In this document: piece by piece, positions 1 through 43,931 of the stretch | Layout of the letters: the number at the start of each line of letters is the position of its first letter | Position numbering within the stretch: the stretch's first letter is position 1 | NCBI GenBank assembly: GCA_039208735.1 | Contig: JBCCQY010000060.1 | Coordinates: forward strand, 1-45,085 | From: Myxococcota bacterium | GTDB lineage: Bacteria > Myxococcota_A > UBA796 > GCA-2862545 | Direction: 5' to 3' | Length of the DNA: 45,085 nucleotides | Notes under the pieces: model-generated | Seen by the model: only the letters and a program-made list of their open reading frames with translations | Told to the model about the DNA's origin: nothing | Database searches by the model: none | Made by a program: the position numbers and the translations under genes

Positions 1-138
1 CAACGCCCGGATAGAGGCCCGCTCTGGCCCCGCTCCTCCTTGGCGCGCGGCTAACGAGGCCTTGCTCGAACCCGGGAAGAGCCCATCTGGAGGCTCGAGT
101 CCCTGTGAAAGGGAGTGTGGACGATCTGTCCACGCGCT

Positions 139-1968
139 TTAGCCGCCCTGCGTTTCCGCTTGCTTTCGTGCCAGCTTCGCCGCCCCCTCGTTCCCCGATG
201 CCTCGTATGCGGCGGCGAGAGCCTGCCAAACGTCGACCTGCCTCGGCCGGAGGTCGGCGGCGGACTCCAAGGCCTGGACGGCCTCTTCGAGCTTGCCAAG
301 CTTGGTGAGCACCCGACCGCGCAGGAAGTGGGCCTCGCCCAGGAGGGGGTCGAAGATCAGGGCCTGATCGAGGGCGCCGAGACCTTCGCGCACCTTCCCC
401 TGGCCAAGCTTCACCACGCCAAGGTTGTAGTGGGCGAAGGCGTAGCGGGGGGAGCGGTCGAGAGCGGAGGCGAGAGCCTTCTCGGCGGCCTTCAGATTGC
501 CCTCAAGGATGAAGGCGGTCGACCGGTAGTTGTCGGGTACGCCCCACGCCGGACAGGCCTTGGCCGCACGGTCCGCCGCGGCGCTCACTTGCTTGCTCGA
601 CTCGCCGGCATAGAGCCGGGCCCGAGCCAACGCGGTCCACAAGGGAGCCGAGCTGCTCTTCTTGGCCGCGGCCTGCAGCAAGCCCATGGCTTCGCGGTCT
701 TCGGACCGGTCGCCCCCCGAACGACCGTCGCGCAACAGTTGCTGCGCCTTCACGAGCAGGGCCCCCTCTTCGGCGCTCGCTTCGCAACCGTCGGGAGGTG
801 GGACTTCACGACTGACCTCGCGTTGCTCCCGCAGGGCGGCGATCACGTAGGTTTCTTCGGCGCCGGGCTCGCCGGCGAGCAGCCCCGTCAGTCGGGCGTA
901 TTCGTCGTTGCTGATGAGCCCCATTTGGTGGTCGACACAGGCGTGCTCAGCGAGGCGCTCCCGGGCTCGCCGGTCTGCCTCATTGATCTGTTCAAGCTTC
1001 GCTGCGGCATCGAGGTTGGCAAGCGAGTCGTACAGCGAGCGTCCCGCTTCGCCTTGCGCCTTGCAGGCCTTGGCCGCCTGGGCCCGATCGACACTGCGCG
1101 CGACGATGGTGCCCTTCGGAGCCGTCTGGTTTTCAAGCACGAGCTGGCCGCCCTCGTGGAAAGCGCGCTGGAAGATGCCCTGCTGGGGCGTTTGGTCGGC
1201 GTTCTGTTGGACGCGTGCCCGCAACTCGGGAAACAGTGTATCGAGCACCACGTAGCGGCCCTGCGCCTCAGCGAGCCCCTGGCGCAGGTAGTAGGCGAAG
1301 ACCGACAACCCGTCGCGGCCTCCATCACTCACGGGCTCGTTGCCGCCCGACGCGAGCACAACCCGGCTTCGCTTGCTGGCCAGGGCCTTGAGCGGGGCGA
1401 GTTCGCTTTCCGTCGTGGGGCGAAGTGCGTCCCGGAACATGCCCGAGAAGCACGAATCGATGATCATCAGCACGTGCCGAGCCGGAATTGCGCGGAGCTT
1501 GGCCGAGACATCGTCGTTGCTCACCCAACGCGAGGTTTCGCTCAACACGGCGTCCGTGGGCAGCCAGTAGCCGCGATTCTCTCCGGTGTCGTACAACCCG
1601 TGGCCTGCGAAGTACACGATGACGGCGTCGTTGGGCTGGGTCTCCCGCTTCAGGGTGTCGAGGCGCGAGATGATGGCCTTTTCGGTGGCGTCGGCCACGA
1701 TCTCGACCTCGAAGCCAAACCGGTCGCGCAACACGCTGCCGACGGCTTCGACGTCCCTCGATGGCGTTCGAAGATCGGGAATTCCCGATTCGGGAGCGTA
1801 GTCCTGTGCGCTGAAGAGAACCGCCCGGTAGCGGGTGATGCCCAGCCCATCGTCGGGCAAGGCGTCGGTGGCTTCGATGACATCGAGACCGCGCGTGGGG
1901 GAGGGCTCAGCGGCCAGTCCCGGTGTGGCGAAAAGCGAAAGCAAACCGAGCATGAGGCCTTCCATCAT
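139..1968 (-). CDS. Exported caspase-family (peptidase C14) protease with C-terminal TPR repeats
   Basis: Hydrophobic N-terminus ending ATPGLA-AE (signal-peptide-like). Intact dyad motifs VIVYFAGHG and LMIIDSCFSG. C-terminal TPR-like repeats (AFAHYNLGVVKL, GEAHFLRGRVL, VDVWQALAAAY). Start placed at ATG 1968, which overlaps the upstream stop (ATGA); the ORF track starts at 1974. Confidence 0.9.
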   Translation of the reverse strand: MMEGLMLGLLSLFATPGLAAEPSPTRGLDVIEATDALPDDGLGITRYRAVLFSAQDYAPESGIPDLRTPSRDVEAVGSVLRDRFGFEVEIVADATEKAIISRLDTLKRETQPNDAVIVYFAGHGLYDTGENRGYWLPTDAVLSETSRWVSNDDVSAKLRAIPARHVLMIIDSCFSGMFRDALRPTTESELAPLKALASKRSRVVLASGGNEPVSDGGRDGLSVFAYYLRQGLAEAQGRYVVLDTLFPELRARVQQNADQTPQQGIFQRAFHEGGQLVLENQTAPKGTIVARSVDRAQAAKACKAQGEAGRSLYDSLANLDAAAKLEQINEADRRARERLAEHACVDHQMGLISNDEYARLTGLLAGEPGAEETYVIAALREQREVSREVPPPDGCEASAEEGALLVKAQQLLRDGRSGGDRSEDREAMGLLQAAAKKSSSAPLWTALARARLYAGESSKQVSAAADRAAKACPAWGVPDNYRSTAFILEGNLKAAEKALASALDRSPRYAFAHYNLGVVKLGQGKVREGLGALDQALIFDPLLGEAHFLRGRVLTKLGKLEEAVQALESAADLRPRQVDVWQALAAAYEASGNEGAAKLARKQAETQGG

Positions 1969-4004
1969 TGGCATCCGGATTGGCGCAATCGTTCACACGT
2001 GGTGGCCGCGTTGCGCTCGGGCGAGGACCATTGGGTGGGATCGCCCACGACCTGCAACTGCAGGAAACCCGAGGTCCAGGCAGGATCTCCCTCGGTCTCT
2101 GGCGGCTCGTCATCGATGCCTCGGGTGCCCGAGATGTGGCCAAGCACAAAGCTCTGGAGCTTGTTCTTGCCCGAGGAACGCTCCAACGCGATCGACCGCG
2201 CCTGCAGCGTGCTCCAGCGCACGGGCTCATGGCTCCCGAACACGAGGATGCGGTCAGGCGCGTCCAGGGGCGGCGTGACGGTGCCCAGCGTTTCGATATG
2301 CTTTTCATCCTTTCGCTTGAGTGTGATGGACACCCCCGCCTCGGGCCAAGCGGCGATGCTGCCGTCGTTCGCGAGGTAGAGGATGCCGATGTAGAGGTCT
2401 TTTTCGGGGTTTCGGCGCAACGAGACCTCGAGCTGTACCGGCGTGCACATGGGCACCTGAACGTAAGGAACCGGCACGGTGGGGGGCCGGTAAGGCGTTC
2501 GAGCGCAGTTGCTGGTGGTAAACGGATCTTGGGTGATCCGCAGATCGAGCATGTCGTGAGGATAGACCTCGTTCGGTTCGGCCGACAGCGCCAACAGACT
2601 GGCTTGGCGGGCGTGAAGGCCCAAGTTCTTGGCCACGTCGAGGGCTTCGCGCGCATTCCGCATGGGATTGCGATTCCGAATCGTGCCTTCGCTCCCTACG
2701 ATTTCCACTGTGCTGGCCGAACCTTGGCGCACCACGAAGTCCGCGGGACCATCGGTGAGCAGGACGGTCTTGGAAATGACGTCGTCGCTCCGAATGGCCT
2801 TGCGCAAGGCGCTGGCGAAGGCCACGCCATCCGTGATGCGCACCCGAATGGCCGCCGTGTCGCGGCCCGGCGTTTCAAGGATGGCGTAGTCGCCAGGGGA
2901 AATGCCGCGGACCTTCCCGATGGTCACCCCTTCCGCCTGGAACTGCCCTGCCTTTTCGAGCCGCACGCGACCCCGGCGTTTGGTCGCCTTGTCGGCGAAT
3001 ACTTCAACGATGGCACCTTCCGTCCATCCGGGCATGGCCGGACCCCGGAACTTGACCCGGTCGCCGCTTACCCGGTGCACCTGCCACGACAGGGAGTGAT
3101 CGACGACGGCCTGGCCAAAGATCTCCCGATCGAGCTGCCCCTCGAACGTGGCGACCTGAAAGCTGCGTTGCGCCGCGATCCAGCGAGGCACGATGGGCAT
3201 GATCTGGGACCAAGACCCTTCGCCCCGGGCATCCAGCGAACGCAACAGGGCGTTGGTGAACACGCCCTGCCCGCCCCGCTCAAGGGCCGAGGTGCCGTCT
3301 TGGGCGGCGGTGATGGTGACGAGTTCGGGGAACCGTTCGGGCCGGTAGTCTCCGTTTGCACTGACGATCCGGTTCTGGATGGGTCGTGACCGCTTGGTGG
3401 GTTCGACACGCCGTTCCGCGAATCCGGCTGACGCCACAGACCGTGTGGTGGTGCCGGAATTGCACGCATCGACGAGGACCGTGATGTTGGTGGTGCGTTG
3501 GTAGGCTTCCGCGAGCAGGGCATTGAACTCGTCGTCGAGGAAGTCGGGAACGGTGGCCCGGCTGTCGTGCAGCAGGATGGTCTCGTCCATCCCGTCTGGC
3601 TCGTCTTGGGGCCCGTCGAAGTCGGTGGTTTGGCTTCCGTGACCCGCGAAGTAGTAGACGACGGTGTCGCCCTGTGAGGCACGGCCCACGTGCTTTCGCC
3701 ACCCGTCGATGTAGGCGGCCCGGGTCGCCTCGTTGTCGAGCAGGGTGCAAATGTTGTCGACAGGAAAGCCGTAGCGCTCAATGAGCATGTCACGGATGCG
3801 GCGGGCGTCGTTGGGCGGGCCGACCAAATCGATGCTCTGGCCCCCCGGCTTGGCTTCGTAGTCGCCGATGCCAACGATATAGGCGATCTTTCGCTCTCCT
3901 GGCGTTCCCACGAGCGGCTTCGGGGACCGGTCGAGGGCGACGCAGTCGGGGCTCGCCATGGCCGCTGACCCGAGCGACCACAGCACCATCAGGGCTGACA
4001 TCAT
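1965..4004 (-). CDS. Exported caspase-family (C14) protease with middle domain and DUF4384-like C-terminal domain
   Basis: MMSALMVLWSLGSAAMA-SP signal peptide after a GAGGGAG RBS. Motifs AYIVGIGDY, VVYYFAGHGSQ, DEPDGMDETI and VLVDACNSG. C-terminal YIGILYLANDGSI...PPLDAPDRILVFGS resembles DUF4384. Confidence 0.88.
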   Translation of the reverse strand: MMSALMVLWSLGSAAMASPDCVALDRSPKPLVGTPGERKIAYIVGIGDYEAKPGGQSIDLVGPPNDARRIRDMLIERYGFPVDNICTLLDNEATRAAYIDGWRKHVGRASQGDTVVYYFAGHGSQTTDFDGPQDEPDGMDETILLHDSRATVPDFLDDEFNALLAEAYQRTTNITVLVDACNSGTTTRSVASAGFAERRVEPTKRSRPIQNRIVSANGDYRPERFPELVTITAAQDGTSALERGGQGVFTNALLRSLDARGEGSWSQIMPIVPRWIAAQRSFQVATFEGQLDREIFGQAVVDHSLSWQVHRVSGDRVKFRGPAMPGWTEGAIVEVFADKATKRRGRVRLEKAGQFQAEGVTIGKVRGISPGDYAILETPGRDTAAIRVRITDGVAFASALRKAIRSDDVISKTVLLTDGPADFVVRQGSASTVEIVGSEGTIRNRNPMRNAREALDVAKNLGLHARQASLLALSAEPNEVYPHDMLDLRITQDPFTTSNCARTPYRPPTVPVPYVQVPMCTPVQLEVSLRRNPEKDLYIGILYLANDGSIAAWPEAGVSITLKRKDEKHIETLGTVTPPLDAPDRILVFGSHEPVRWSTLQARSIALERSSGKNKLQSFVLGHISGTRGIDDEPPETEGDPAWTSGFLQLQVVGDPTQWSSPERNAATTCERLRQSGCQ

Positions 4005-4014
4005 CCCAACTCCC

Positions 4015-6630
4015 TCAACGACACGTTTCCGGACGACAGATGCGCGTGGTGTCACGCGTACCCGGCCGGGAGGTGGGGTCGATGGACCACTCCTCCGCGA
4101 CCTGCTTGTGGCGCCAGCACGCCTTGAGTCGTTCCCCGGCGTACCCGCCCCATTTCTCGAGTTCGGTGCCCACGAGATCGGACTTCCGGTACCAAGCTAG
4201 GAACTGGTACTCGACCCCCACGTCACGGGCGCCGGGGTCGAGGTTTTCGTACCCCTCCCAAATCTGACGCTCTTCGGGGCTCATACGGGCCCAACTGGCG
4301 TCACCGGCGTGGCTGCCAAACACCACGAATCGATCTGGGTCTACAACCAGGTAGGTGTGGCCGCCGGTATTGCGCCGATTCCGGGTGACGAGCACGTCGC
4401 CGGTCTGCAGCGCAAGGCCCATGCAGTCGATCCAGTGGTCCTTCATGATCTCTGGATGGTTGGCCATGATGTTGGTCGACACGAAGCCTGCGCGGAAGTT
4501 CTCGTTGGTGAACAGCAAGCATTGCCGCTGGTCCACATGGAACGCCCGTAACCGGGCCTGGTACGCCGCTTTCCGCTCTCGAGGCTGCTTCTCGGGAATC
4601 GCCGTGCGGGTGTCACCCTTGCAGGCGCGCGTGAACACGAACCACATCGTGGAGCTGCAATCGATGCCTGGGCTGTCACCGAGTTCGATTTCATCGCGGG
4701 TGAAGTCGTACGGCCGTTCCCAACACGTGTCGCCTGGCCAGTCTCGCTCGGAAAAGCGGGTTCGGTTGTTGATGGCCTTGTGGCCCTCGCCCCAACACTG
4801 GGCGTAGGCAAGCCCATCTCGCCCCGCGTTGGTGCGACGGAACTTGGCGAGCCGGTCGGCCTGCTGGAGCACCTTCGTGAGGTAGGCGTTCGGGTTGGCC
4901 GGCAGGTAGGGCGTCACATCGAAGCCGGCGAGGGTGATGTCGCGCCGCCGAGCGCCTGGGTCACGGGGAAGGTCCGTCGGGCGTGGAGGCACCGGCGTGA
5001 CTCGATAAGCGAGGTGCTGGCGGTACCAGCGGCCTCCGATGGTGGGCGGGCCCGCCACGGTGATGTCGCGTGCGGACCAGCCCGAAACCGCTCCGAAATC
5101 GACGTTGGAGCCGACGGGCGCAGCAAACACGAGAATGTGCTCGGTGATGTCGAACGGCGGCACCGACACGAGGCCAGGTTTACGCTTGGGGCGCTGTAGA
5201 TCGAAGCGGCGCCGGTCGCCGGGCTTCAGCACCACGGGGGTGTCGGTCATCGGGAAGCCGAGGAGGGTGCCGTCGTTGCCCATCACCACGACCCCAACTT
5301 CGGCCGCGAATGCGGTCTTGGCCGCAAGTTCGACCTCGACCTGCCACCGCCAACACACCGGCACCGTCTGCACCTCGTGCAAGGGGGCTTGCACCCATTC
5401 CCCGGCGGCACAGGGGCCCTGTCCTTCGACCGGTCGCATGCGGATGGTCAGGGGTCCGGTTGGGACGTCCATCGACAACAAGGCGGCTTGCTGCCCGTGC
5501 AGCATGAGGTTCTGGGCGACCTTGTCGGCGGCAGACCGGAGGTCATCGTCGGAGACGCGGTTGCGCACCCCCCCTTCGGGCCCGACGACCTCGAGTGCAC
5601 CCGACGTCGGGTCACGGCGGACGATCCAGTCTCCGCCCTCCTTCGGCACGAGCGTCACCCGGCGGGCAACCTCCTTGTCGCGGGCGATTTCTCGCTTCAG
5701 GAGACGGGCTTCTTTGGCCGGGAGATCGATGGGGCGGTCGCCCTCGAGCAGGCTCACCGTGATGCCCCCGTCGGGGATTTCGAACTTGGTGACCTGCAGC
5801 GGCTCTTCGCCAATGCCTGGCTTGCCGAACACGGGGGTCTCGAGTGCGCCCACGAGGCTCGGGACCTGGACGCTGCGAGATGCCACCTTCGCGATGAGGA
5901 GGTCCGAGAGGGCCTCGTAGGTGCCATGGCGAGGCGCGAGGTCGGTCAAGAACCGGGTGAACACCCCGCCGTTCTCGGTCTCGAGCGCTGCGCCAAGGCG
6001 TGCGGCATCAACCACGGTGAGGTTGGGGGCTCCCGCGTCGACCCAATGGTAATCTCCATCGCCAACCCCGATAATGGCCTGTTCGACCTCGGTGCGCGTC
6101 GGCGTACGGCGATCGGTGAAACGGGCGGTATGGCGACGTCGTTCGCCACTCGCGGGCTCGGTGCTCGCATCGATGACCACGGCCACGTACGAGGCGCGCC
6201 GCAGGATGCCTTCGAGGGCCTCGTGCAAAGCGTCGTCGAGAAGCATGCCGTCGGCAAGCATCCAGGCTTCGTCCCAGGGGTCCGGTTCATCCTGGTTCAC
6301 ATCGGCGACGAGGGTGCCTGCACCAGCGAAATAGAGCACCACGGGTTCGTCCTTGGGCGCACCGTCGACGAGCTTCGTGAATTCTGCCGTCACCGCGTCG
6401 ACGGTGGCGGCCTTTCCGACCAGCTTCACGACATCGCCGGGCGGAAACCCGTAGGTCCCCGTGAGCAAGGCTCCCATCTTCTCAACATCGGCGTTAGCGC
6501 CCGGCAATGCGGGCCCTTCCCGGGGCTCACTCGCTCCGATGAGCACGGCCCGGCCGGACGCATAGGCGCTCGATGGGGCCAGCCAAAAACTCATCATCAG
6601 GAGGGGAACAAGGGCAGCGAGGTGGATCAA
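4015..6630 (-). CDS. Exported inactive caspase homologue fused to a DUF4384-like domain and a C-terminal NlpC/P60-like cysteine hydrolase domain
   Basis: TTG start with GGAGG RBS and signal peptide (..APSSAYA-SG). Caspase-fold motifs with the dyad lost: VVLYFAGAG and VVIDASTE. C-terminal YAQCWG, PGIDCSS, LQTGDVLV, GGHTYLV and FGSHAG follow NlpC/P60 motif order. Confidence 0.8.
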   Translation of the reverse strand: MIHLAALVPLLMMSFWLAPSSAYASGRAVLIGASEPREGPALPGANADVEKMGALLTGTYGFPPGDVVKLVGKAATVDAVTAEFTKLVDGAPKDEPVVLYFAGAGTLVADVNQDEPDPWDEAWMLADGMLLDDALHEALEGILRRASYVAVVIDASTEPASGERRRHTARFTDRRTPTRTEVEQAIIGVGDGDYHWVDAGAPNLTVVDAARLGAALETENGGVFTRFLTDLAPRHGTYEALSDLLIAKVASRSVQVPSLVGALETPVFGKPGIGEEPLQVTKFEIPDGGITVSLLEGDRPIDLPAKEARLLKREIARDKEVARRVTLVPKEGGDWIVRRDPTSGALEVVGPEGGVRNRVSDDDLRSAADKVAQNLMLHGQQAALLSMDVPTGPLTIRMRPVEGQGPCAAGEWVQAPLHEVQTVPVCWRWQVEVELAAKTAFAAEVGVVVMGNDGTLLGFPMTDTPVVLKPGDRRRFDLQRPKRKPGLVSVPPFDITEHILVFAAPVGSNVDFGAVSGWSARDITVAGPPTIGGRWYRQHLAYRVTPVPPRPTDLPRDPGARRRDITLAGFDVTPYLPANPNAYLTKVLQQADRLAKFRRTNAGRDGLAYAQCWGEGHKAINNRTRFSERDWPGDTCWERPYDFTRDEIELGDSPGIDCSSTMWFVFTRACKGDTRTAIPEKQPRERKAAYQARLRAFHVDQRQCLLFTNENFRAGFVSTNIMANHPEIMKDHWIDCMGLALQTGDVLVTRNRRNTGGHTYLVVDPDRFVVFGSHAGDASWARMSPEERQIWEGYENLDPGARDVGVEYQFLAWYRKSDLVGTELEKWGGYAGERLKACWRHKQVAEEWSIDPTSRPGTRDTTRICRPETCR

Positions 6631-6714: not shown

Positions 6715-7488
6715 TCAGTTGGGGTCTTCCGCCTTGGCACCTTCAAAGCGCTGCCACACGACGAGCACGACGATGATGATGGCGAGGGACACCAGGGTGA
6801 CCTGAAGCGGCTGCACGCGTTCGAGTTCCGCTGCGTTGAGGTTGGACCCAAACAGTTCCTGGGCTCGTCCAATGGCCAGCGAGATGCGGCCCATGACCGT
6901 AAACCCAAAGCTCGCCCCAAACGACAGCATGAGTACGAGCACGCCAAACCGGCTGATGCCTCGCATGACGGGCGAATGCGGCGCCGAAAAGTAGAAGTGA
7001 AGCAGGCAAGCAGCCAGTCCGACGACGAGGAAGATCGAACTCAGCACCCCGGCATAGTCGGCACTGGGGTCGACGAGGCCGTGCATCTCGTAGACCACCC
7101 GCAGGTTGGGCATGGTCTCGGCGACCTGCCGCATGAGGCTTCCACTGGCTTCGCCGGTGAGTTTTACCCCTGCGTAGGCCGCGACGAGGAACGCGATGGG
7201 GAGCCGGGCCATCCAGGCCACGGAACGACCCCCCACCTTGAGGAACAGCAGGATGCACAGTAACAACGGAAACAGCGAGATGAGGTTTCCGTCAGCGAGC
7301 TTGTCGAGCAGGTTCGGCTTGAATGCGTTGTAAAACTGCTGGACCACCCCAATCCCGATCGACACGCCCAGGAACAGGTGCTCGGCGATCTTGTACAACG
7401 GATTATCGGCGTACAAGTATGAGAAGATGCACAGGGTAAGGAAGATCGAGAGCCAGGCTCCAAGGAGCGTCAGCACTTCGCCGCTCAT
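6715..7488 (-). CDS. Uncharacterised polytopic membrane protein (GlmL-operon member)
   Basis: MSGEVLTLLGAWLSIFLTLCIFSYLYADNPLYKIAEHLFLGVSIG, with about 7 hydrophobic segments. ATG 7488 overlaps the upstream stop; the ORF-track extension to 7647 is not protein-like. Confidence 0.8.
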   Translation of the reverse strand: MSGEVLTLLGAWLSIFLTLCIFSYLYADNPLYKIAEHLFLGVSIGIGVVQQFYNAFKPNLLDKLADGNLISLFPLLLCILLFLKVGGRSVAWMARLPIAFLVAAYAGVKLTGEASGSLMRQVAETMPNLRVVYEMHGLVDPSADYAGVLSSIFLVVGLAACLLHFYFSAPHSPVMRGISRFGVLVLMLSFGASFGFTVMGRISLAIGRAQELFGSNLNAAELERVQPLQVTLVSLAIIIVVLVVWQRFEGAKAEDPN

Positions 7489-8360
7489 GCGCGACCTCCC
7501 GCAGCGGGGCCGCCCCGCGGCCGGGTGAGGAACCAGGCGATGTTGCCCAGCATGATCAGGACGATGATGTAGAGGTGCCCCAAGTTGAGCACGTTCACGG
7601 CGGGCGTTGCGAGCAGGCGTACCCCTTCGGGCGGACCGTCGGGCCATACCAGCCGCTCATACTGGGCTGCCGCCGGCATGCCTCCGACGAGCCCTCGCAG
7701 CTGATTGCCCTTGTAGAAGGGGACATAGTCAGGCGCCGACACCGCGGTGCATGCGCTTACCATGTCGAGCGAGTACTGCCCCTGGATCTGCAGGACGTAC
7801 TCCCGAGTGCCCGGAAATCCAGCTGAAATCAGGACCAAGAGGGGAAAGTCCTGGGCCTGTCGCTTGCCCTGCATGATGGGGAGCGACTCCACAGGATTGC
7901 CCTTGGGATCGACCGGAAAACTCTTGGGAATGTTGGCGCCAATCGCTTTGATGGCGAGTTCGAGCCCCGGCTTGAATCCGAGAAAGGCGTAGTCCGTGCC
8001 GTACTCGAGATCATAGGCGCCCGCGACCTCTTCGAGCATCGGTCCGACGAGCGGGGGGGCCGTTTCCCATAGGGTCACCATGACCACCTTCACGTCCTTG
8101 CGGAACAGGTGGTGCAGGTTCGCTCGCATGAAGGGTTCGAGTTCGGGACGGGACCCCGGATCGAAATCGGCCGACAGCAGCACGGTCGACCCATCGGGCA
8201 CGGCCTCGACTTGATCGTACAGCGCCTGGACACGCTCATCGATCTTGAAGCCAAGCTGAATGGGGACGAACATGGGTACGACGATGGCCACCGCCATCCC
8301 GAGAAACACGAAGCGCGGGTCCATGCGTTGGAACCGCTCGAGGAACTGGAACAGGGTCAT
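7485..8360 (-). CDS. Uncharacterised membrane-anchored protein, 291 aa (GlmL-operon member)
   Basis: N- and C-terminal TM segments flank a soluble alpha/beta domain (LSADFDPGSRPEL, GLVGGMPAAAQYE). ATGA overlaps at both ends. Confidence 0.8.
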   Translation of the reverse strand: MTLFQFLERFQRMDPRFVFLGMAVAIVVPMFVPIQLGFKIDERVQALYDQVEAVPDGSTVLLSADFDPGSRPELEPFMRANLHHLFRKDVKVVMVTLWETAPPLVGPMLEEVAGAYDLEYGTDYAFLGFKPGLELAIKAIGANIPKSFPVDPKGNPVESLPIMQGKRQAQDFPLLVLISAGFPGTREYVLQIQGQYSLDMVSACTAVSAPDYVPFYKGNQLRGLVGGMPAAAQYERLVWPDGPPEGVRLLATPAVNVLNLGHLYIIVLIMLGNIAWFLTRPRGGPAAGGRA

Positions 8361-8986
8361 CCCTCGCCTCCCAAGTGGCTACGCTCGATGCCGAGGATGA
8401 CGCGCAGGCCGGTGGCGATGGCGCCCAAGGCCGCCCCAATGAAGATGGCGCGTCGTGCCGCGGTGTTGGGCACGTCCATGATCCAGTTGCGAATGCCCGG
8501 GAGGTAGTCGCCGATCAAGGGGATTTGTTCGCCGATGGGCACGCTCGCGAGCATCACGAGCATGGCGGCTGACAACAGGACCGCGGCGTCCAGGTTTCGC
8601 GCTCGAAAGGCCCGGAACGCCGCCGAGGCGATGAAGAATGCAAGCAACGCGAACATCGTCGCTGACAAAGGCACGAAGACGTAGTCGTAAATCCACTTGT
8701 AGACGTCGCCTTCTTCGCCGTAGCCCAAGCCAAAAACCAGCGTGACGGCGAGGGCTACGAGCATGAGGAGCTTGTACGGCCAATCTCGTTCGCGGCGCGC
8801 GATCTTGGGGACGTTGACCTGCAGCAGATTCAAAATGCCCAGCAGGTAGGCCGCTGCGGCCAGGATGAGGCCCCACTCCGTGAACTCGTCGGTGAGCGCT
8901 TTGAATCGGTAGTGCGGGATGAAGAACTCGAGGGCCATGACAATGCCCACGACCATCGTGATGATGAGGGGAAGCGTACGCCTCAT
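8357..8986 (-). CDS. Uncharacterised polytopic membrane protein, 209 aa (GlmL-operon member)
   Basis: About 6 hydrophobic helices. Motifs PLSATMFALLAFFIASAAFRAFRARN and PNTAARRAIFIG. Overlaps both neighbours by 4 nt. Confidence 0.8.
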   Translation of the reverse strand: MRRTLPLIITMVVGIVMALEFFIPHYRFKALTDEFTEWGLILAAAAYLLGILNLLQVNVPKIARRERDWPYKLLMLVALAVTLVFGLGYGEEGDVYKWIYDYVFVPLSATMFALLAFFIASAAFRAFRARNLDAAVLLSAAMLVMLASVPIGEQIPLIGDYLPGIRNWIMDVPNTAARRAIFIGAALGAIATGLRVILGIERSHLGGEG

Positions 8987-10170
8987 CCACCACCTCCCAC
9001 GGTGAATGCGAGCTGAATGGCATCGCTATTAAAGAAGGTCGCCGCCATCGTACCGATGACCAGCATCACCACGACGTAGATCTTGATGTAGTCGCTGGCC
9101 TTCAACGAGCTGATGAGCCTCGGATCGCGCGAAAGGTAAGCGCTCACCGCAAACAGCTCCTCGCCGATGAGCGTGTAGTCGCACGCTGCGACGAAGAACG
9201 GGAGCTGGCTTGCTTCGGCGGTACCCGCAATCTGGATGGACTGGTTGACGTAGCCCGTCTCGGCCAGGATGAGCGATTCGGCGAAGAAGCGCCCTAGATA
9301 TAAATTAGTGGCTGGCTTTTCTCGGTGGATGATGCCATTCGTGCCGGCCGTAAACGCGAACTGGTCGGAACTGATGAACCGGACGTTGGCGGGGTCGTGG
9401 GCATCGGGGAACCCAGCTTCGAAGAAGCCCGCCTTGACCACCTCATCGGCGACCTCGCGCACGACGGGAATGCGGCACGACACCACGATTTCTGAGCCGT
9501 ATTCGGCCACCGTCTTCGACACCTGCCCGAGAATGAGCATGGATGCGATGGTCTGGATGTCTTGCAGTTCGTCGATGCCGGGGACGTACAGCACGGGCCG
9601 ACCCATCTCGGTGGCACGTCCGATGCCTTCTTCGATCGCATCGATGCCGGGGATGCGTCGGATGAAGATGGGGTGTCCGGCTTGAGCTTGCCGCGTGAAC
9701 AGCATCATCAGTCCTGCGATGGCCAAAATGAGCAACGCAAGATGGATGTAGGCGGCCGACGTCTTGACGAAGGTGGCGCGGGGAATGCCTTCGACCGCAG
9801 CCGACGCAGCCATCGCAAGCAGATTTGAGACCGATAGCTCGTCGTTCGGATCGTCGGTGCGGGCCACCACCCGGTACCAATACCGGTCGGCGGGGCCCGT
9901 CCAAACGTCGTCGGTCACCTGATCGACAAAGGTGGTGGTCGAGGCGGCGACCGCAGCTTGCACGACGGTCCACGGGCCTTCGGGGCCGGCGTCCGATCGA
10001 AGCAATGCGTAGCTTGTGGGTTCGGAACCGGCCTCTCGAGGTCGTTTCCACGACACCTCGAGGGTCAATCCATCGCCGCCAGAGGGCGCCCGGACCGACA
10101 CGTCGGTGGGGGCGCTCGCCTGAGCGATTCCGGCGACCAAGGCCAACAACAGGGCAAGGAGTGCCGTCAT
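8983..10170 (-). CDS. Fibronectin type III domain membrane protein with DUF6754-like C-terminal domain
   Basis: Signal peptide, FN3-like pattern (APTDVSV..LEVSW..YALLRS..YWYRVVA), one TM helix, then IRRIPGIDAIEEGIGRATEMGRPV...QIAGT...QLPFFVAACDYTLIGEELFA and a final TM. The DUF name is from recollection. Confidence 0.75.
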   Translation of the reverse strand: MTALLALLLALVAGIAQASAPTDVSVRAPSGGDGLTLEVSWKRPREAGSEPTSYALLRSDAGPEGPWTVVQAAVAASTTTFVDQVTDDVWTGPADRYWYRVVARTDDPNDELSVSNLLAMAASAAVEGIPRATFVKTSAAYIHLALLILAIAGLMMLFTRQAQAGHPIFIRRIPGIDAIEEGIGRATEMGRPVLYVPGIDELQDIQTIASMLILGQVSKTVAEYGSEIVVSCRIPVVREVADEVVKAGFFEAGFPDAHDPANVRFISSDQFAFTAGTNGIIHREKPATNLYLGRFFAESLILAETGYVNQSIQIAGTAEASQLPFFVAACDYTLIGEELFAVSAYLSRDPRLISSLKASDYIKIYVVVMLVIGTMAATFFNSDAIQLAFTVGGGG

Positions 10171-11294
10171 GCTTCGATGACCTCTACGTTGGAGCGCGGG
10201 ATCTGTGCGGTTTCGCCGTCGTCGAAGCGAACTTCCATGACTCGGGCCTTGCTGCCGGATGACAGCACCACGGGTTCGACGGGGAGTCCGGTCACCTTGC
10301 CAAGTCGCCCGAACCAGGGCGCCCGAATGCCGCGCACCGTGTCGCCAATCGCGATACCCACGGGGTCCGCCGGCGTCACGCGTTCGGCGTCGACCGAGGC
10401 GTCTTCGAGGGGCACGACGACCTCGGGCCGAATCACGCCGGCGCGAATCTGGGTGGCGCCGTTGATCGAGGCCATTCGGCCGCTCTTGGACTTGAGGAGC
10501 GAGAACGTGGCTGGTGCCATGGCGATCTCGCCAAAACCCTCGGTCACGATCAAGGTGAGCCCGAGGTCTTCGCCGCCCGTGATGGCGACCCCGACCTCGT
10601 AGCCAAGCAGCTTCTTGATCTCATCGTAGTCGAAGCCTCCGGTCACGATGCCGCGCACGCCAATCTCGATGGCTCGCTTCACAGCCTTGGCGGTGACATA
10701 GGCTCCGCCGACCACGATGTGGCCTTCGGCATGGGGATGCAGGGCGGTGGCTTCGAGGACCTGGCTTGGCTTGTCGACGGCCATGGCCAGCGGGGCTCGA
10801 ACCTCGCCGCCCAGCCCGAAGATGCCCTGCACCAACGCCGCCGGCGTCTGAATGACGCAGCCTTCGTTGGGCATCACCTCAACGACGCGGCCAGGCAGGT
10901 AGGCATCGACCTCGACGGGGATGGGGTGGGCTTGGAAAATGACTTGTCCGGTGACCGCGGACACGCTCTCGATGGTGCCCGACACAGGTGCGGTCGCAAA
11001 GCTGCGAAACAGGCCGAACAAGCCTGGGGTGCTCGCAATGACTTCGCCGCGTTCGACGCTGTCGCCCACCGACCGTTCCATGTTGTCGGGCAGCCGTCCG
11101 GCGTCGATGCCCAGTTGGTTGGCGACGTTCACCGGAAAGATCTTTCCCGGAAGGTCGGTTCGCGCGACGATGTCGTCGGCCTTGACGGACTGGCCGACCT
11201 CGACCATCACGGTGCCCTCGAGGGGCAACTGCCGCTCCTTGACCACCACGGTGTTCGGGCTGACCTTCAGCCCGGGCGTGAAGATCGCCGCCAT
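10167..11294 (-). CDS. Uncharacterised soluble protein with barrel-sandwich-hybrid-like repeats and KOW/SH3-like C-terminus
   Basis: Repeats VEVGQSVKADDIVA and SVGDSVERGEVIA, plus TAPVSGTIESV and AYLPGRVVEV. C-terminal IGDTVRGIRAPWFGRLGKV. Confidence 0.75.
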   Translation of the reverse strand: MAAIFTPGLKVSPNTVVVKERQLPLEGTVMVEVGQSVKADDIVARTDLPGKIFPVNVANQLGIDAGRLPDNMERSVGDSVERGEVIASTPGLFGLFRSFATAPVSGTIESVSAVTGQVIFQAHPIPVEVDAYLPGRVVEVMPNEGCVIQTPAALVQGIFGLGGEVRAPLAMAVDKPSQVLEATALHPHAEGHIVVGGAYVTAKAVKRAIEIGVRGIVTGGFDYDEIKKLLGYEVGVAITGGEDLGLTLIVTEGFGEIAMAPATFSLLKSKSGRMASINGATQIRAGVIRPEVVVPLEDASVDAERVTPADPVGIAIGDTVRGIRAPWFGRLGKVTGLPVEPVVLSSGSKARVMEVRFDDGETAQIPRSNVEVIEA

Positions 11295-13111
11295 CAGGTG
11301 CTCCCTGGGTCAGAGTCGGGGTATTCGTCGAGCTGGTAGCCCCAGCCCTCGAGCTTGATCACCCGCGGACCTGGGCCTTCGGGCAGCACGATGGGACGTC
11401 CGCGCGTGTCGATGATGATTCCCACCTCACCGCCCCGGAGCGTCCGTTCGACCCGTCGTCCTTGGCCTTCCCCCAGGTCGAGGCGAGGCTGCAACGGGGT
11501 CAGGGTGGCCTTGGTGACCTCGTCGACCCCACAGGGGAAGCGCAGCAACTCGCCGGCCGGCACCTGGCGTTCGATTCGCGTGCCATCTGGCAAATCGAGC
11601 TGCACCTTCAGCGCCGGTCGGTCTTGGCGCATGGCCCCTGCGGGCGCCACACACGTGCCCAATGCGATGAGGCAATCCCGTTCGAAGACCTCGGTGGCCG
11701 CATCTTCCTGTACGGTTGAGAGCACGCCGAGATGCGGCATCATGAAGATGCTGTCGACCGCGAGTTCGGTGATGCCTTCGGGAGCGAATGCATCGATCAT
11801 CATGCGCATCGACTGCACGCGGCGTGGCGCATGGGAGAGCACGCCGCCCGAGCCGACGAGGAGGTCCAACTTCATCATCTGAACGAGGCTTTCGTCCTCG
11901 TTTTGGGCAAACGCATCGGCGATGGTGCGCTGCTTTTGCACCCCTCGCAGGCCCACCGCGAACTCTCGGTGTTGGATGAAGGCGAGTCGCAGCGCCTCTC
12001 GAGCGATGGCCTGCTCGACCTTCAGTTCTTCCAGGGTCTCCGGAATCGTCGTGGGCCGAATCATCTTGTTGCCGATGCGGTTGCGCAGGCCCTTTTCGTC
12101 GAGTGCGAAGGGGACCCAGCGTAAGATCTGCGCCAGCCCAGCTTCGGCGAGCACGTTGCTGACCGAGTAGCTCATGCCGAGGTTGGCACTCACCGTACGG
12201 TTGAACTGTCCGTCGAACACGCTGAAGACGTCGGTGGTGGCGCCGCCAATGTCGACCCCGAGGACGTTGATGCCGCGTTGCCGCGCAATCGTCTGCATGA
12301 TGAGGCCGACCGCCCCTGGCGTGGGCATGATCGGAGCGTCGGTCCACCCCATGAGCTTGGGGTAGCCAGGCGCCTGCTGCATCACGTGTTCCATGAACAG
12401 GTCGTGGATTTTGTCGCGAGCAGGGTCGAGGTGCTCGACTTCCATGACCGGGCGCACGTTTTCGACCATGGAGAGCGCTGAGATGCCGCCGAGCAGCTCC
12501 TGGATGTCGTCACGGGTGGCTTGGTTGCCGGCGAAGATGATGGGCAGGTCGTACGCACCGCCAAGGCGGGTTCGAGGCCTTGCCGCGCGAATCCGCTCGG
12601 CCATGGCCACAACGTGCTTGCGCGTGCCGCCGTCGATCCCCCCGGAGAGCAAGATCATGTCTGGGCGCAGCTGGCGAATGCGTTCGATCTGCTCATGAGG
12701 GCGGCGTTTGTCGTTCGTGGCGAAGGTGTCCATCACGATGGCCCCGGCTCCTAAGGCCGCGCGCATCGCGGATTCGGCCGACATGGACCGGACGACTCCT
12801 CCCACGACGACCTGGAGTCCGCCGCCCGCCGAAGAGGTCGAGATGTAGGCGTCGACCCCCGCGCCGTCATCGCGCTGCGGGGTGAGGATGCCTCCGTCCG
12901 GGTCTACGAGTTGACGCCCAGACATCTCCTGGATTTCTTGGGCGGCGTTCGTGACCCCTCGGGTGACGTCCTCGAAAGGCGCTTCGACGGTGGTCGGGGC
13001 CTCACCGCGCCAGGTCTGACGATATTCATCGCCGACCTTCTCGATGAGGATGGCTTTGGTGGTGGTGCTCCCACAGTCTGTGGCGAGCACGCTGCGCAAG
13101 GGCTTCTTCAC
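11294..13111 (-). CDS. glmL: GlmL (glutamate mutase L) family actin-fold (ASKHA) ATPase
   Basis: Phosphate-1 DCGSTTTK, SSAGGGL, PDMILLSGGIDGG, phosphate-2 DIGGATTDVFS, RTVSANLGM and GSGG adenosine motif. GTG start at 13111 overlaps the upstream stop. Confidence 0.85.
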   Translation of the reverse strand: MKKPLRSVLATDCGSTTTKAILIEKVGDEYRQTWRGEAPTTVEAPFEDVTRGVTNAAQEIQEMSGRQLVDPDGGILTPQRDDGAGVDAYISTSSAGGGLQVVVGGVVRSMSAESAMRAALGAGAIVMDTFATNDKRRPHEQIERIRQLRPDMILLSGGIDGGTRKHVVAMAERIRAARPRTRLGGAYDLPIIFAGNQATRDDIQELLGGISALSMVENVRPVMEVEHLDPARDKIHDLFMEHVMQQAPGYPKLMGWTDAPIMPTPGAVGLIMQTIARQRGINVLGVDIGGATTDVFSVFDGQFNRTVSANLGMSYSVSNVLAEAGLAQILRWVPFALDEKGLRNRIGNKMIRPTTIPETLEELKVEQAIAREALRLAFIQHREFAVGLRGVQKQRTIADAFAQNEDESLVQMMKLDLLVGSGGVLSHAPRRVQSMRMMIDAFAPEGITELAVDSIFMMPHLGVLSTVQEDAATEVFERDCLIALGTCVAPAGAMRQDRPALKVQLDLPDGTRIERQVPAGELLRFPCGVDEVTKATLTPLQPRLDLGEGQGRRVERTLRGGEVGIIIDTRGRPIVLPEGPGPRVIKLEGWGYQLDEYPDSDPGST

Positions 13112-13404
13112 CGGGGCTCCTCCGCTGACCCACGGGCTTCGCGGTCGACGTTCTCGAGATGTTCGACGAAGCGCTCGAGTCCGTCGGGTTCCTCGAGCAG
13201 TGTGGCGAGTGCGTTCCATTGGTTCACGGGCAGGAACGCCCCAATCGCTGGGGTGAGCAGATGCATGAATTGCGATCCCGTTCGGGCGAGCGGGCGGAGC
13301 GACTCGAGCCAGAGGATCGCGGGGACCGTGAGTTCGAAGCGCACCAAGAACCGCGCCACCTTGTCCATGGCGAGTTCGGCCTCTTGGGCTTCCTCGGGGG
13401 TCAC
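13108..13404 (-). CDS. Small hypothetical protein, 98 aa (GlmL-operon member)
   Basis: Protein-like amphipathic sequence (MDKVARFLVRFELTVPAILWLESLRPL). GTGA overlaps at both ends. Confidence 0.75.
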   Translation of the reverse strand: MTPEEAQEAELAMDKVARFLVRFELTVPAILWLESLRPLARTGSQFMHLLTPAIGAFLPVNQWNALATLLEEPDGLERFVEHLENVDREARGSAEEPR

Positions 13405-13820
13405 GGATGCTCTCCCGTCGTGAGCACGGTGTCGAGTGCGGCCCGGACCCGACCCCGCTCTTCATCACAACGCAAGAGCACGGTCCGGGACTGGCGCAAT
13501 GCCCGATGGTGGCCCCGTCCGAGCAGGACGAACCCCTCGTCGGTGGAGCGGTAGCCCGTGAAGCGCGACCAGCCGTGGCGGCGCGACACGAGGGCGCGGG
13601 CCACCGTGAGGCCTCGGTCATCGACGGTGTAGGTGGCGGGAATCAGCACGTCGCTGGTCGCCCAAACGAGCACCCCGACCGCGACGAGGGCCAGCCAACC
13701 GTCGACGAGGCCCACCGCCGCTGCGGTGCATCCGATGACGAGGGCCGAGGCGGCGCTGCGGACGGGCTGGCGTCGGGCGGGCCAGTCGGTCCACCGAAGC
13801 GGGGGAGGTGCATCGACCAT
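13401..13820 (-). CDS. Small membrane protein (2 TM plus small beta domain), first gene of the GlmL operon
   Basis: MVDAPPPLRWTDWPARRQP, two hydrophobic segments, then PATYTVDDRGLTV..RRHGWSRF (bacterial PH-like pattern). Start uncertain. Confidence 0.65.
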   Translation of the reverse strand: MVDAPPPLRWTDWPARRQPVRSAASALVIGCTAAAVGLVDGWLALVAVGVLVWATSDVLIPATYTVDDRGLTVARALVSRRHGWSRFTGYRSTDEGFVLLGRGHHRALRQSRTVLLRCDEERGRVRAALDTVLTTGEHP

Positions 13821-37681: not shown

Positions 37682-38551
37682 ATGGCACGTCGTAATACCG
37701 GTGGACGGCTTCGCGCCCTCCTCTTCCTGTTCATCTCGTTCTCGGCCGCGGCGGTCGCGAGCGTCGTCATCTACTTCGTCATCAGCTCCTACCAGAGCCA
37801 GCTCGACAACGCGCAGCTTCCCGAGCAGACGGTCGAAGTCATGGTGGCGGACCGGAACCTTGGTCCCGGCAAGACCATCATCGATGAGGACCTTGCGATG
37901 GAGGCGCTTCCGCCTGACTACGTTCCGGATTCGGTGCTCCGTCAGAAAGAGCAGGCGAAGGGTCGGGTGCCCCGAGAACGCATTTTGAAGGGTGAGTTCA
38001 TCCGTGAGGAGCGGTTGGCCGATCCCGAGGCCGGCTTGGGCCTCAACGCGATCATCCCCCGAGGCATGCGCGCCCTTTCCATCAATATCAGCGATGGATC
38101 GGCGGTGTCGGGCTTTCTGAATCCGGGCAACTACGCGGATGTGCTCGTCACGATCGATGGAGATTCGACGCGTCCCGAGGCCACGACCAAGACGCTGCTG
38201 CAGGCGGTGACGGTGCTCGCGGTCAACAACCGACTGGGCACGAGCGTCGAGCAGCTCGACGGCAGCTACAAGCCTTCCGTCACCTTGGCTGTGACGCCCG
38301 AAGACGCTCAGAAGCTGACCCATGCGGTGGCCCAGGGTGAAGTCACCCTCACGCTTCGCAACGACATCGACGTCACCCACGTCGAGACCCACGGTGCGAT
38401 GGCGTCCAAGATGCTCATGAACGAAGACACCGCGAAGCGCATCACCGTCAAGGAGTGGACGGAGCGTCGCGAGAAAGGTGGCGACGGTACGCTCCTGCTG
38501 ATCCAGGGCAAATCGGTCCAGAAGGAGAAGTCGCAAGCTCAGCGACCCTGA
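37682..38551 (+). CDS. cpaB: Flp pilus assembly protein CpaB/RcpC
   Basis: N-terminal TM, SAF domain (VMVADRNLGPG), PRGMRALSI, VSGFLNPGNYADVL, VTLAVTPEDAQKL, LTLRN. Confidence 0.92.
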   Translation: MARRNTGGRLRALLFLFISFSAAAVASVVIYFVISSYQSQLDNAQLPEQTVEVMVADRNLGPGKTIIDEDLAMEALPPDYVPDSVLRQKEQAKGRVPRERILKGEFIREERLADPEAGLGLNAIIPRGMRALSINISDGSAVSGFLNPGNYADVLVTIDGDSTRPEATTKTLLQAVTVLAVNNRLGTSVEQLDGSYKPSVTLAVTPEDAQKLTHAVAQGEVTLTLRNDIDVTHVETHGAMASKMLMNEDTAKRITVKEWTERREKGGDGTLLLIQGKSVQKEKSQAQRP

Positions 38552-38567
38552 CCTCCGATCGCGGGAT

Positions 38568-38613
38568 CAAACGCCTCGCTGGTGATCCAATCGGGTCACC
38601 AGCGAGGCGTTTG
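38568..38613. repeat. 21-bp inverted repeat (hairpin) downstream of cpaB
   Basis: CAAACGCCTCGCTGGTGATCC-aatc-GGGTCACCAGCGAGGCGTTTG: 20 Watson-Crick pairs and one G-U. Confidence 0.85.
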
Positions 38614-38868
38614 CTGTGTGGTGGAGCGTGTTTGAACCGGATTTGGGATCGCGTGTTGTCCGAGGCAGCAACCGTTCCGAGACCGCAGTAAAAGGTCCAT
38701 CCCGTCACGTGGTCAACGTTGACGATCGAGAAACGAGAACAGAAATCGAAAGGCCTACCGATGCCATCGTGGACCGGACCTCCGATCGGTCGGAAAACCC
38801 ACTGGCCGATCTGTCGATTTGAGGTAGGCTCCGCTCCGACCGATTCACCCCCCGAGAGGAACCGTCCG

Positions 38869-40266: not shown

Positions 40267-40397
40267 GTAGTGTGACCGGTTGGTGCCCCAGGCTTGACTC
40301 CCCCGGGGCAACAACCGAAGGTATGGTACTCAAGGCGTGGGGCCGCGCCTGACAATGGCCTAAGATGCGCCCCTGTCGACGTTGAGGAGGTCAGCTC

Positions 40398-41597: not shown

Positions 41598-41601
41598 GTG
41601 A

Positions 41602-42960: not shown

Positions 42961-42964
42961 GTCC

Positions 42965-43930
42965 ATGCAGCAGTGGGTTCTGGTCATCGTCCTGGCCATC
43001 GTGTTCACCGCGGTGCTCGCCATGGGACAGGGGCTGTACTGGGCTTGGGTCGCAAAGCGCGAGCGGGAGCAGGAAGAGCTGCTCCGTCGTCTTGGCAGCG
43101 GCACGGGCTACGACGAAGAAGAAAACGAGCTGTCGCTGTTCCGCGATCAGGCGGTCGACCAGGTCGCCGGTTCGCTCGGCAACATCGGCGAGGCGTTGCA
43201 GACTACGCTTCGCAAGGCCGACGTAAACTACGATGTCAGCTCACTGTTGATCCGCATGGGCATGTTGGGCGCCATTGGCTCCATGGTGGGAGCCATCTTC
43301 TCGCCGGCGGGCCTCGTTGGGGCGTTGGTCGGCATTCCGCTGGCCTATGTGCCGCTCTTCATCGTTCAGCAGCAAGGCAACGCTCGCATCAAGAAGTTGG
43401 TGGAACAGCTTCCTGATTCGCTCGACCTGATGGCGCGCGCACTCTCTGCGGGGCTTGGCTTGTCCGACGCGTTCCGCCTCGTCGCCGAAGAAATGCCGAT
43501 GCCGATTGCGGCCGAGTTTGGTCGGGTGCAGGAAGAGGTCCGGTTCGGCCGTGACTACCGCGAGGCATTCAACAAGCTCCTCGAACGGAATCCGGGGGTC
43601 TTCGACCTTCGGATCTTCGTGTCGTCGGTCATGCTTCAGCGGGACACCGGCGGTAACCTCATCGAAATCCTGAAGAACATTTCCGATACGATTCGGGCCC
43701 GCTTCCTGTTTGACGCGAAGCTCGCTGCCATGACGGCCGAAGCCAAATTTTCGGCCCTCATCCTCGGCAGCTTGCCGCTGTTCGTGCTTGCGGTCCTCGT
43801 GCTTGGGAACCCCGAGTACCTGGAGCCGATGGTCACGACGACGATCGGCAACGTGATCATCGTGGCCTGCATCACGTCTTATACGCTCGGCATTCTCCTG
43901 ATGCGCGATCTGTCGAAGGTGGAGGTCTAA
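42965..43930 (+). CDS. tadB: Tad inner-membrane platform protein TadB
   Basis: EQLPDSLDLMARALSAG, PIAAEF, QRDTGGNLIEIL, TAEAKFSALIL. Confidence 0.92.
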   Translation: MQQWVLVIVLAIVFTAVLAMGQGLYWAWVAKREREQEELLRRLGSGTGYDEEENELSLFRDQAVDQVAGSLGNIGEALQTTLRKADVNYDVSSLLIRMGMLGAIGSMVGAIFSPAGLVGALVGIPLAYVPLFIVQQQGNARIKKLVEQLPDSLDLMARALSAGLGLSDAFRLVAEEMPMPIAAEFGRVQEEVRFGRDYREAFNKLLERNPGVFDLRIFVSSVMLQRDTGGNLIEILKNISDTIRARFLFDAKLAAMTAEAKFSALILGSLPLFVLAVLVLGNPEYLEPMVTTTIGNVIIVACITSYTLGILLMRDLSKVEV

Positions 43931-43931
43931 G

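What the first reader, a model, noticed from the sequence alone, without database searches (positions are those of the whole stretch)
139..6630. Operon of three exported caspase-fold proteins: candidate extracytoplasmic protease cascade
Seen: three consecutive co-oriented C14 genes (10-nt gap containing an RBS, then an ATGA overlap). Each has a signal-peptide-like N-terminus and several Cys outside the active site, compatible with disulfides. Architectures differ: pseudocaspase+NlpC/P60, caspase+DUF4384-like, caspase+TPR. Established: the best-characterised bacterial caspase-like proteases in defence and cell death (for example gasdermin-activating ones) are cytoplasmic, and TPR domains commonly act as ligand sensors. 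Inference: a sensor (TPR caspase), amplifier and effector relay working outside the cytoplasm. I know of no characterised system with this layout.
Basis: partly seen in the sequence, partly recalled or inferred. Interest (0 to 1): 0.85.

Follow-up and report, generated by a model that had tools for sequence, protein, structure and literature searches.

The report
Exported caspase-gated cell-wall hydrolase pair
An uncultured myxobacterium carries three neighbouring genes for caspase-like proteins that are predicted to be exported; two of them are complementary halves of a widespread, apparently undescribed two-enzyme protein, so one likely cuts and switches on the other's predicted cell-wall-cutting domain, while the third gene is only loosely tied to them.

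Summary
In detail: three intact, co-oriented caspase-fold genes, each with a signal-peptide-like start and an even number of non-catalytic cysteines. A and B are paralogues. Both belong to a large unnamed family of exported proteins that join a live metacaspase to a DUF4384-like region and a live NlpC/P60 domain (49 of the 150 best profile hits keep both active sites). A has lost the caspase dyad but keeps the NlpC/P60 site; B has the reverse. A and B are adjacent in all four congeneric genomes that hold them. A basal A-type gene also sits beside two B-type genes in another assembly. C (caspase plus TPR) follows them in only two of those four genomes; elsewhere it lies near CsgG-like genes. 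Export is no distinction here, since about 25 of this genome's 26 caspase-fold genes look exported. Most likely B activates itself at a conserved arginine after export and then processes A in trans, freeing a peptidoglycan peptidase. A fixed three-step cascade is less likely. Family members often lie beside other exported caspases (16 of 23 locus groups) and sometimes beside contractile-injection genes (6 of 23). No cleavage, export or activity has been shown.

The parts
4015..6630 (-). Gene A (871 aa): predicted signal peptide, dead metacaspase domain, middle domain, DUF4384-like domain, NlpC/P60-like domain with an intact catalytic site
6559..6630 (-). A: predicted Sec signal peptide (about residues 1-24)
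   Evidence: hydropathy; family count; SignalP not run
5821..6555 (-). A: pseudo-metacaspase (Ala104 and Ser156 replace the His/Cys dyad; acidic metacaspase motif kept; post-cysteine Arg site lost)
4987..5463 (-). A: DUF4384-like domain with Cys407/Cys426 and a variable loop holding Arg521, a candidate cut site (5068-5070)
   Evidence: (by homology to B); the site is inferred
4018..4953 (-). A: NlpC/P60-like domain, Tyr609, Cys658, His758, His774; predicted peptidoglycan peptidase
4005..4014 (-). 10-nt A-B gap with a purine-rich ribosome-binding-like sequence
   Evidence: the gap is also 10 nt in G001 and an ATGA overlap in G002 and G003
1965..4004 (-). Gene B (679 aa): predicted signal peptide, live metacaspase (His122, Cys181), insert, middle domain, DUF4384-like domain; no NlpC/P60. 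Candidate cut sites Arg188 and Arg628
139..1968 (-). Gene C (609 aa): predicted signal peptide, TRGL pro-segment motif (Arg26), live caspase domain (His123, Cys173) of another subfamily, helical middle part, TPRs at about 488-602
1..141 (.). Two-copy repeat at the contig end (identical to the start of contig C239); what lies beyond C is unknown

Best explanation
A and B are a split form of a protein family whose members are predicted to be exported and carry both a metacaspase and an NlpC/P60 domain; B likely self-activates after export and then likely cuts A in trans to free or switch on A's predicted peptidoglycan peptidase. Shown: paralogy, complementary active-site losses, conserved adjacency, and the fused form with both sites. 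Inferred in steps: (1) Sec export and disulfide formation. (2) B activates itself by cutting after Arg188, just behind the catalytic Cys, perhaps helped by the higher calcium outside the cytoplasm. (3) B docks on A through the shared caspase-fold or DUF4384-like domains and cuts a basic site such as Arg521. (4) The freed domain cuts peptidoglycan, more likely of prey or competitors than of the producer. C is a separate exported arginine-type caspase that moved next to A-B in one sub-lineage. It may join in because its pro-segment carries the same motif, but it is not a required part.
For: Fused form: 49 of 150 best hits keep both sites, 39 have a live caspase and no NlpC, and 13 have a dead caspase and a live NlpC. 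A phmmer search with one fused member gave 182 hits, and the 120 listed were nearly all full-length, from several phyla. Adjacency: A-B are adjacent and co-oriented in G000-G003. P0018 (basal A-type) and P0152 and P0095 (B clade, support 99) have consecutive accessions and the same 88,565-nt longest contig. Caspase-less forms: of 6 leader-bearing NlpC genes with no caspase of their own, 5 have a caspase gene within 540 nt and the sixth is on a 2.3-kb contig (most are close kin). Cut sites: a basic residue just after the catalytic Cys is found in 46 of 49 live/live rows, 33 of 40 live/no-NlpC rows and 1 of 20 dead-caspase rows. A matching motif remains in the DUF4384-like loop in 11 of 15 A-clade rows, against 23% of random windows. 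B's closest solved relatives are Arg/Lys-type metacaspases and Geobacter GSU0716. The NlpC domain is nearest to tail lysins and wall endopeptidases (30 of 39 match phrog_1015). A phage-type lysozyme gene is a neighbour in 4 of 23 groups.
Against: No cleavage, export, expression or hydrolase activity has been shown. Four A-type paralogues (G000:C7, G001:C38, G002:C194, G003:C2) have no B-type gene beside them. The loop motif in A is weak row by row (random windows reach it 4-67% of the time), and A has higher-scoring sites elsewhere. Fifteen of the 20 dead-caspase rows are one clade, so the loss of the first site is largely one event. NlpC/P60 hits are mostly below the Pfam cut-off, and the PDB profile search gave only E 0.3, so the substrate could be something other than peptidoglycan. 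The four congeneric genomes are kin. The free tree did not join the A and B clades, although one clade was not rejected (p-AU 0.55).
Confidence: 0.5

Rival explanations
1. Three-tier extracytoplasmic cascade: C senses a ligand through its TPRs, activates B, and B activates A.
For: C is coupled to B by an ATGA overlap in G000 and follows B in G001. Fragments of A and C orthologues share a 32,448-nt longest contig in a third assembly. The TR[GA]L motif lies before the caspase domain in 7 of 7 C-type caspases and is the best match to the family's site profile, equal to B Arg628. Another caspase-fold gene lies within 8 kb in 16 of 23 family locus groups, and a WD40- or TPR-bearing one in 8 of 23.
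Against: C is unlinked in G002 and G003. Its steady neighbours are CsgG-like genes in G002, G003 and G016, and one lies about 4.4 kb away in G001. None of the 27 C hits shares a contig length with the A orthologues P0006-P0008, P0011 or P0013-P0015. A shared motif fits self-cleavage just as well.
Confidence: 0.15
2. Independent secreted enzymes of a predatory arsenal: B and C are self-activating degradative proteases, A is a constitutive wall hydrolase whose dead caspase is only a scaffold or binding module, and the genes cluster through duplication and shared expression.
For: The genome holds 26 caspase-fold genes, nearly all with export-like starts. A-type, B-type and doubly reduced paralogues occur alone, for example a dead caspase without NlpC at G000:C92. 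The NlpC domain was lost many times across the tree.
Against: It does not explain why the caspase is kept live in 49 fused members, why caspase-less NlpC genes sit next to live caspase genes, or why the A clade stays beside B-clade genes from its basal member on.
Confidence: 0.2
3. Producer-side lysis or release module for an extracellular contractile injection system (eCIS): the exported, caspase-timed hydrolase opens the producer's own wall, and the window's copy is a detached descendant.
For: eCIS sheath, baseplate or spike genes lie within 8 kb in 10 of 31 loci (6 of 23 groups), often with a lysozyme, a small membrane protein and a lipoprotein. In the same genus, family members sit beside sheath or baseplate genes at G000:C208, G003:C23 and G003:C2, the last an A-type gene. 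The hydrophobic leaders are unlike the hydrophilic eCIS loading signals (PMC11297309, passages), so these are not tube cargo.
Against: The sheath and baseplate markers hit other contigs (C12, C63, C208) and not this window. G001 has the trio but no sheath match, while 55 of 61 genomes searched have one and nearly all lack this family. Seventeen of 23 groups show no eCIS gene in the DNA held. Peptidase_C14 is not significantly enriched in eCIS loci in PMC8213781 (supplement file 4: 5 genes, FDR 0.26).
Confidence: 0.12

Closest known systems
Caspase-like releasing peptidases of polymorphic toxins (Zhang et al. 2012, PMC3482391; passages read)
   Same: A caspase-fold domain lies upstream of a C-terminal effector and is proposed to release it. 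NlpC/P60 is a listed effector domain, and catalytically dead caspase repeats are noted.
   Different: Here the protease is metacaspase-like, N-terminal and behind a Sec-type leader. The C-terminal domain is constant, not polymorphic. No RHS or FilH repeats were found in the three proteins. The protease and effector can be split into two genes.
Prokaryotic metacaspases with predicted signal peptides and multi-metacaspase operons (Asplund-Samuelsson et al. 2012, PMC3501461; passages and section 13 read)
   Same: N-terminal helices likely to be signal peptides, operons with up to three metacaspases (20 of 217 operons have more than one), fusions to Amidase_2, and an amidase in the Geobacter operon.
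   Different: That paper's main text does not mention NlpC (0 occurrences), and the passages read describe no live/dead complementary pair or processing link.
Metacaspases Yca1, AtMC4 and GSU0716 (PDB 4f6o, 6w8s, 3bij) and orthocaspase MaOC1 (PMC7475262; passages read)
   Same: His/Cys dyad and the acidic metacaspase motifs. MaOC1 activates itself by cutting after an Arg.
   Different: The eukaryotic enzymes and MaOC1 are treated as cytoplasmic (recalled). They have no DUF4384-like or NlpC/P60 domain.
Csx29-Csx30 of type III-E CRISPR (bioRxiv 10.1101/2022.08.17.504292; passages read)
   Same: A caspase-like protease cuts a partner inside its C-terminal domain, which in one group is DUF4384, a domain often fused to proteases.
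   Different: That system is a cytoplasmic CHAT protease triggered by RNA, cuts after Met, and acts through a sigma factor.

Membership tests
Peptidase C14 (caspase domain) | PF00656 above the cut-off with a His/Cys dyad | tested here: met
   B and C meet both. A has the fold by alignment but lacks the dyad.
Metacaspase (C14B) | Acidic S1 and calcium-site motifs and closest similarity to solved metacaspases | tested here: met
   B aligns to Yca1 at E 6e-15 with the aspartates kept; they are nearly invariant in the family. C lacks the acidic motif after the His.
Metacaspase (C14B) | Arg/Lys specificity, calcium dependence and self-cleavage | not testable with these tools
   Only inferred from the conserved basic site.
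NlpC/P60 superfamily | Papain-like core with Tyr, Cys, His and a polar third residue | tested here: met
   Conserved in 39 aligned domains; 31 of 39 match PF00877 at E<=0.1 and at least one passes the cut-off; Atlas structural neighbours of A are CHAP, NlpC and Amidase_5 clusters at TM 0.3-0.5.
NlpC/P60 peptidoglycan endopeptidases | Cuts peptidoglycan stem peptides | not testable with these tools
   Nearest annotated relatives are tail lysins and wall endopeptidases.
DUF4384 | PF14326 match | tested here: inconclusive
   No Pfam hit in A, B or 30 family members; Atlas neighbours include DUF4384 clusters.
Sec-exported proteins | Cleavable signal peptide | tested here: inconclusive
   Hydropathy, orthologue starts and paired cysteines agree; no dedicated predictor was available.
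Conserved three-gene system | A, B and C linked wherever all three occur | tested here: not met
   Linked in 2 of 4 genomes.
Polymorphic toxin systems | Variable C-terminal toxin domains on a constant N-terminus, with immunity genes | tested here: not met
   The C-terminus is NlpC/P60-like, absent or degenerate in most of the 150 hits. Twenty rows with other or degenerate tails were not examined one by one. Immunity genes were not sought.
eCIS accessory or cargo proteins | Location in an eCIS locus and a hydrophilic loading signal | tested here: not met
   Not met for this locus. Location is met for 6 of 23 family groups. Leaders are hydrophobic.

The most novel reading that the evidence does not exclude
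A widespread, undescribed extracytoplasmic caspase pathway: a repeat-bearing exported caspase (WD40, TPR or TPR-CHAT; here C) triggers a metacaspase that unlocks an NlpC/P60 wall hydrolase, either in cis (fused family) or in trans through a pseudocaspase partner (A plus B). It would kill prey or lyse the producer to release contractile injection particles.
Probability: 0.25. Interest if true: 0.85.

Novelty: new variant of a known kind. Interest (0 to 1): 0.62.

Why it matters
Bacterial caspase-like proteases with known substrates act in the cytoplasm (recalled). Exported ones have been catalogued since 2012, and the papers read name no substrate for them. This family supplies a built-in candidate substrate, candidate cut sites and a natural split version (a dead-caspase effector plus a trans-acting protease). 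That makes the question of what exported bacterial metacaspases do directly testable. A fused member is annotated in a named species, Peristeroidobacter soli (WP_157995372.1). If confirmed, it would be a protease-gated wall hydrolase and a bacterial enzyme/pseudoenzyme pair outside the cytoplasm.

Tried and rejected
SignalP could not be run. No RNA holder was listed for the locus, which says nothing about expression. The promoter/terminator scan found nothing above chance. A PDB profile search with the NlpC alignment gave only LytE at E 0.3. A phylum-wide search found the family in 3 of 401 genomes, but scored only 2 candidates per genome, so this is a lower bound. An order-wide search with P0018 found no new genome (5 of 154), so the A+B+B locus rests on accession order and contig length, not on DNA that I read. 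Whether A and B come from one duplication is unresolved. An obligatory link to eCIS was rejected. Literature searches that found no description of this family: DUF4384 + caspase (4 papers); 'NlpC P60' + metacaspase + bacteria (0, but the space may not match the slash); NlpC + caspase-like + prokaryotic + secreted (2); eCIS + caspase + peptidase C14; bacterial metacaspase + secreted + calcium + autoprocessing; caspase-like protease + periplasmic + cascade + peptidoglycan hydrolase; pseudo-caspase + heterodimer. Searches were seen as listings only. Three of 15 supplements of PMC8213781 were not searched, and subscription papers are outside the library. Earlier scan notes held no look-alike of A or of a fused member.

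Full report
Setting. The window is the whole contig C60 of a 9.4-Mb, 64% GC draft genome. A congeneric genome (G002) is labelled a Myxococcales MAG, and close C homologues are labelled Myxococcota. C ends 138 nt from the contig end, at a two-copy repeat, so nothing downstream can be read.

Domains. B and C pass Pfam Peptidase_C14 with intact dyads, and C has TPRs; A has no Pfam hit. A aligns to B over residues 42-504 (E 3e-33), with Ala and Ser at the dyad positions and without an insert of about 65 residues. B's nearest solved structures are yeast and plant metacaspases and Geobacter GSU0716, with the acidic motifs kept. C lacks that motif and is a different subfamily. B's C-terminal region resembles DUF4384-type clusters in the Atlas, which is a lead only. 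A's last 310 residues are NlpC/P60-like. In 39 aligned family domains the Tyr, Cys and first His are invariant; 31 of 39 match PF00877 at E<=0.1, mostly below the cut-off; and 30 of 39 match a tail-lysin PHROG.

Export. SignalP was not available. All three starts are hydrophobic and no later stretch looks transmembrane. In the family, 114 of 123 leaders are hydrophobic against 66 of 490 control windows. Non-catalytic cysteines are even in number (10, 6, 4). A lacks both partners of B's Cys21/Cys86, and the A clade gains cysteine pairs around its insertions. Export is not special to this locus: the genome has 25 PF00656 matches plus A, and about 25 of the 26 have such starts by eye. Exported prokaryotic metacaspases and operons with up to three of them were reported in PMC3501461 (passages and section 13).

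The family. A profile of A and ten relatives was run against 1.84 billion representatives. Of the best 150 hits, 49 have both sites live, 39 have a live caspase and no NlpC, and 13 have a dead caspase and a live NlpC. A further 14 have NlpC without a caspase (some are fragments), 20 have a live caspase with another or degenerate tail, and 15 fall in other classes. A search with one fused member listed 120 of 182 hits, nearly all full-length, from Gamma- and Alphaproteobacteria, Acidobacteriota-type MAGs, Ca. Kentrum, Thiolapillus and Peristeroidobacter soli. A few are named 'NlpC family hydrolase' or 'peptidoglycan hydrolase' by their sources. A and B are therefore complementary reductions of one two-enzyme protein. 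The A clade is well supported, and its basal member P0018 has lost the dyad but keeps the insert. A single duplication giving A and B was neither recovered nor rejected (p-AU 0.55).

Linkage. A-B are adjacent in G000, G001, G002 and G003; the fifth congener (80% complete) had no match. C follows B only in G000 and G001, and probably on one further contig. In G002 and G003, C lies elsewhere near CsgG-like genes, and G016 has C's TPR half alone in the same setting. Four A-type paralogues have no B beside them.

Family neighbourhoods. A metagenome scan gave 77 loci. I kept the 31 with at least 5 kb of flank and dropped 46; the 31 fell into 23 groups at 70% identity. Another caspase-fold gene is present in 16 groups, a WD40- or TPR-bearing one in 8, eCIS structural genes in 6 and a phage-type lysozyme in 4. 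For comparison, 20 of 217 operons in PMC3501461 hold more than one metacaspase; that is a different measure (operons, not 8-kb windows). In G000, caspase genes within 8 kb of each other occur at C60, C208 and C55 only. Five of six leader-bearing NlpC genes that lack a caspase lie within 540 nt of a caspase gene, but most are close kin. eCIS is not required: G001 has the trio and no sheath match, while 55 of 61 genomes searched have one. PMC8213781 does not mention caspases in its text, and its table shows no significant enrichment (12 of 15 supplements searched).

Processing sites. A basic residue just after the catalytic Cys is present in 46 of 49 live/live, 33 of 40 live/no-NlpC and 1 of 20 dead-caspase rows; 15 of those 20 are one clade. 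This resembles the self-cleavage of MaOC1 after Arg219 (PMC7475262, passages). A profile built from that site scores B Arg628 and C Arg26 highest. It finds a match in the DUF4384-like loop of 11 of 15 A-clade rows against 23% of random windows, including A Arg521, but the match is weak row by row and A has better-scoring sites elsewhere. The motif [TS]RG[LIV] occurs 12 times in the genome's 26 caspase frames, against 2.3 expected. A shared motif allows cross-processing but fits self-processing equally well. DUF4384 is one form of the Csx30 domain that the caspase-like Csx29 cuts (bioRxiv 2022.08.17.504292, passages).

Mechanism. Most likely (0.5), B activates itself after export and processes A in trans, freeing a peptidoglycan peptidase, as caspase-like domains are proposed to release polymorphic toxins (PMC3482391, passages). 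Paralogy, complementarity and linkage are shown. Export, cleavage, substrate and target cell are inferred. Rivals are independent secreted enzymes (0.2), the three-tier cascade with C as sensor (0.15) and an eCIS-release lysis module (0.12). The last shares the gating step and differs in target.

Verdict. The feature is real, and the family behind it was not found in the seven literature searches listed under Tried and rejected. The two-gene core is the stronger finding; the trio is confined to one sub-lineage. It is a new variant of a known kind (a protease-gated effector), interest 0.62. If the full extracytoplasmic pathway is real (probability about 0.25), interest would be about 0.85.

Noticed in passing
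window 37682-44885: Tad/Flp pilus cluster (CpaB, secretin, CpaE-like ATPase, TadA and two further genes), about 31 kb from the trio. Tad-like systems are linked to contact killing in Myxococcus (recalled).
   Followed up: no
window 6715-13621: GlmL-like gene followed by five conserved genes with no NCBIfam hit, several of them membrane proteins. It ends 84 nt upstream of A here, but in G001 about 4 kb of other genes lie between, so the adjacency is probably incidental.
   Followed up: partly
L060 (G000:C208:1-9437): A tail-sheath gene divergent from a live B-like caspase, an unnamed 598-aa exported protein and a WD40-caspase. The 598-aa protein family recurs beside the fused family in 10 loci.
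   Followed up: partly
L059:9405-12848 (G000:C92): A B-like paralogue with a dead caspase and no NlpC, behind an unnamed 474-aa exported protein; the pair is syntenic in G001:C27.
   Followed up: no
L063:6494-9409 (G000:C45): A TIR domain fused to the B-like middle and DUF4384-like region, with no caspase hit.
   Followed up: no
L062:1043-4720 (G000:C49): A lipoprotein with a C-type caspase, many Sel1 repeats and 44 cysteines; orthologues in G002 and G003.
   Followed up: no
L076, L077, L079, L081 and others (G000): Several exported caspase genes follow small genes that look like sigma and anti-sigma pairs (judged by eye), the operon type noted for Myxococcus in PMC3501461.
   Followed up: no
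L122, L124, L127, L133, L155, L170: An eCIS subtype in which baseplate and tail genes are followed by a PASTA-domain protein, a small membrane protein, the fused caspase-NlpC gene and, in most, a lipoprotein, a WD40-caspase and a lysozyme.
   Followed up: partly
G000-G060: Sheath homologues occur in 55 of 61 genomes of this uncultured order, which suggests a near-universal contractile system there.
   Followed up: no
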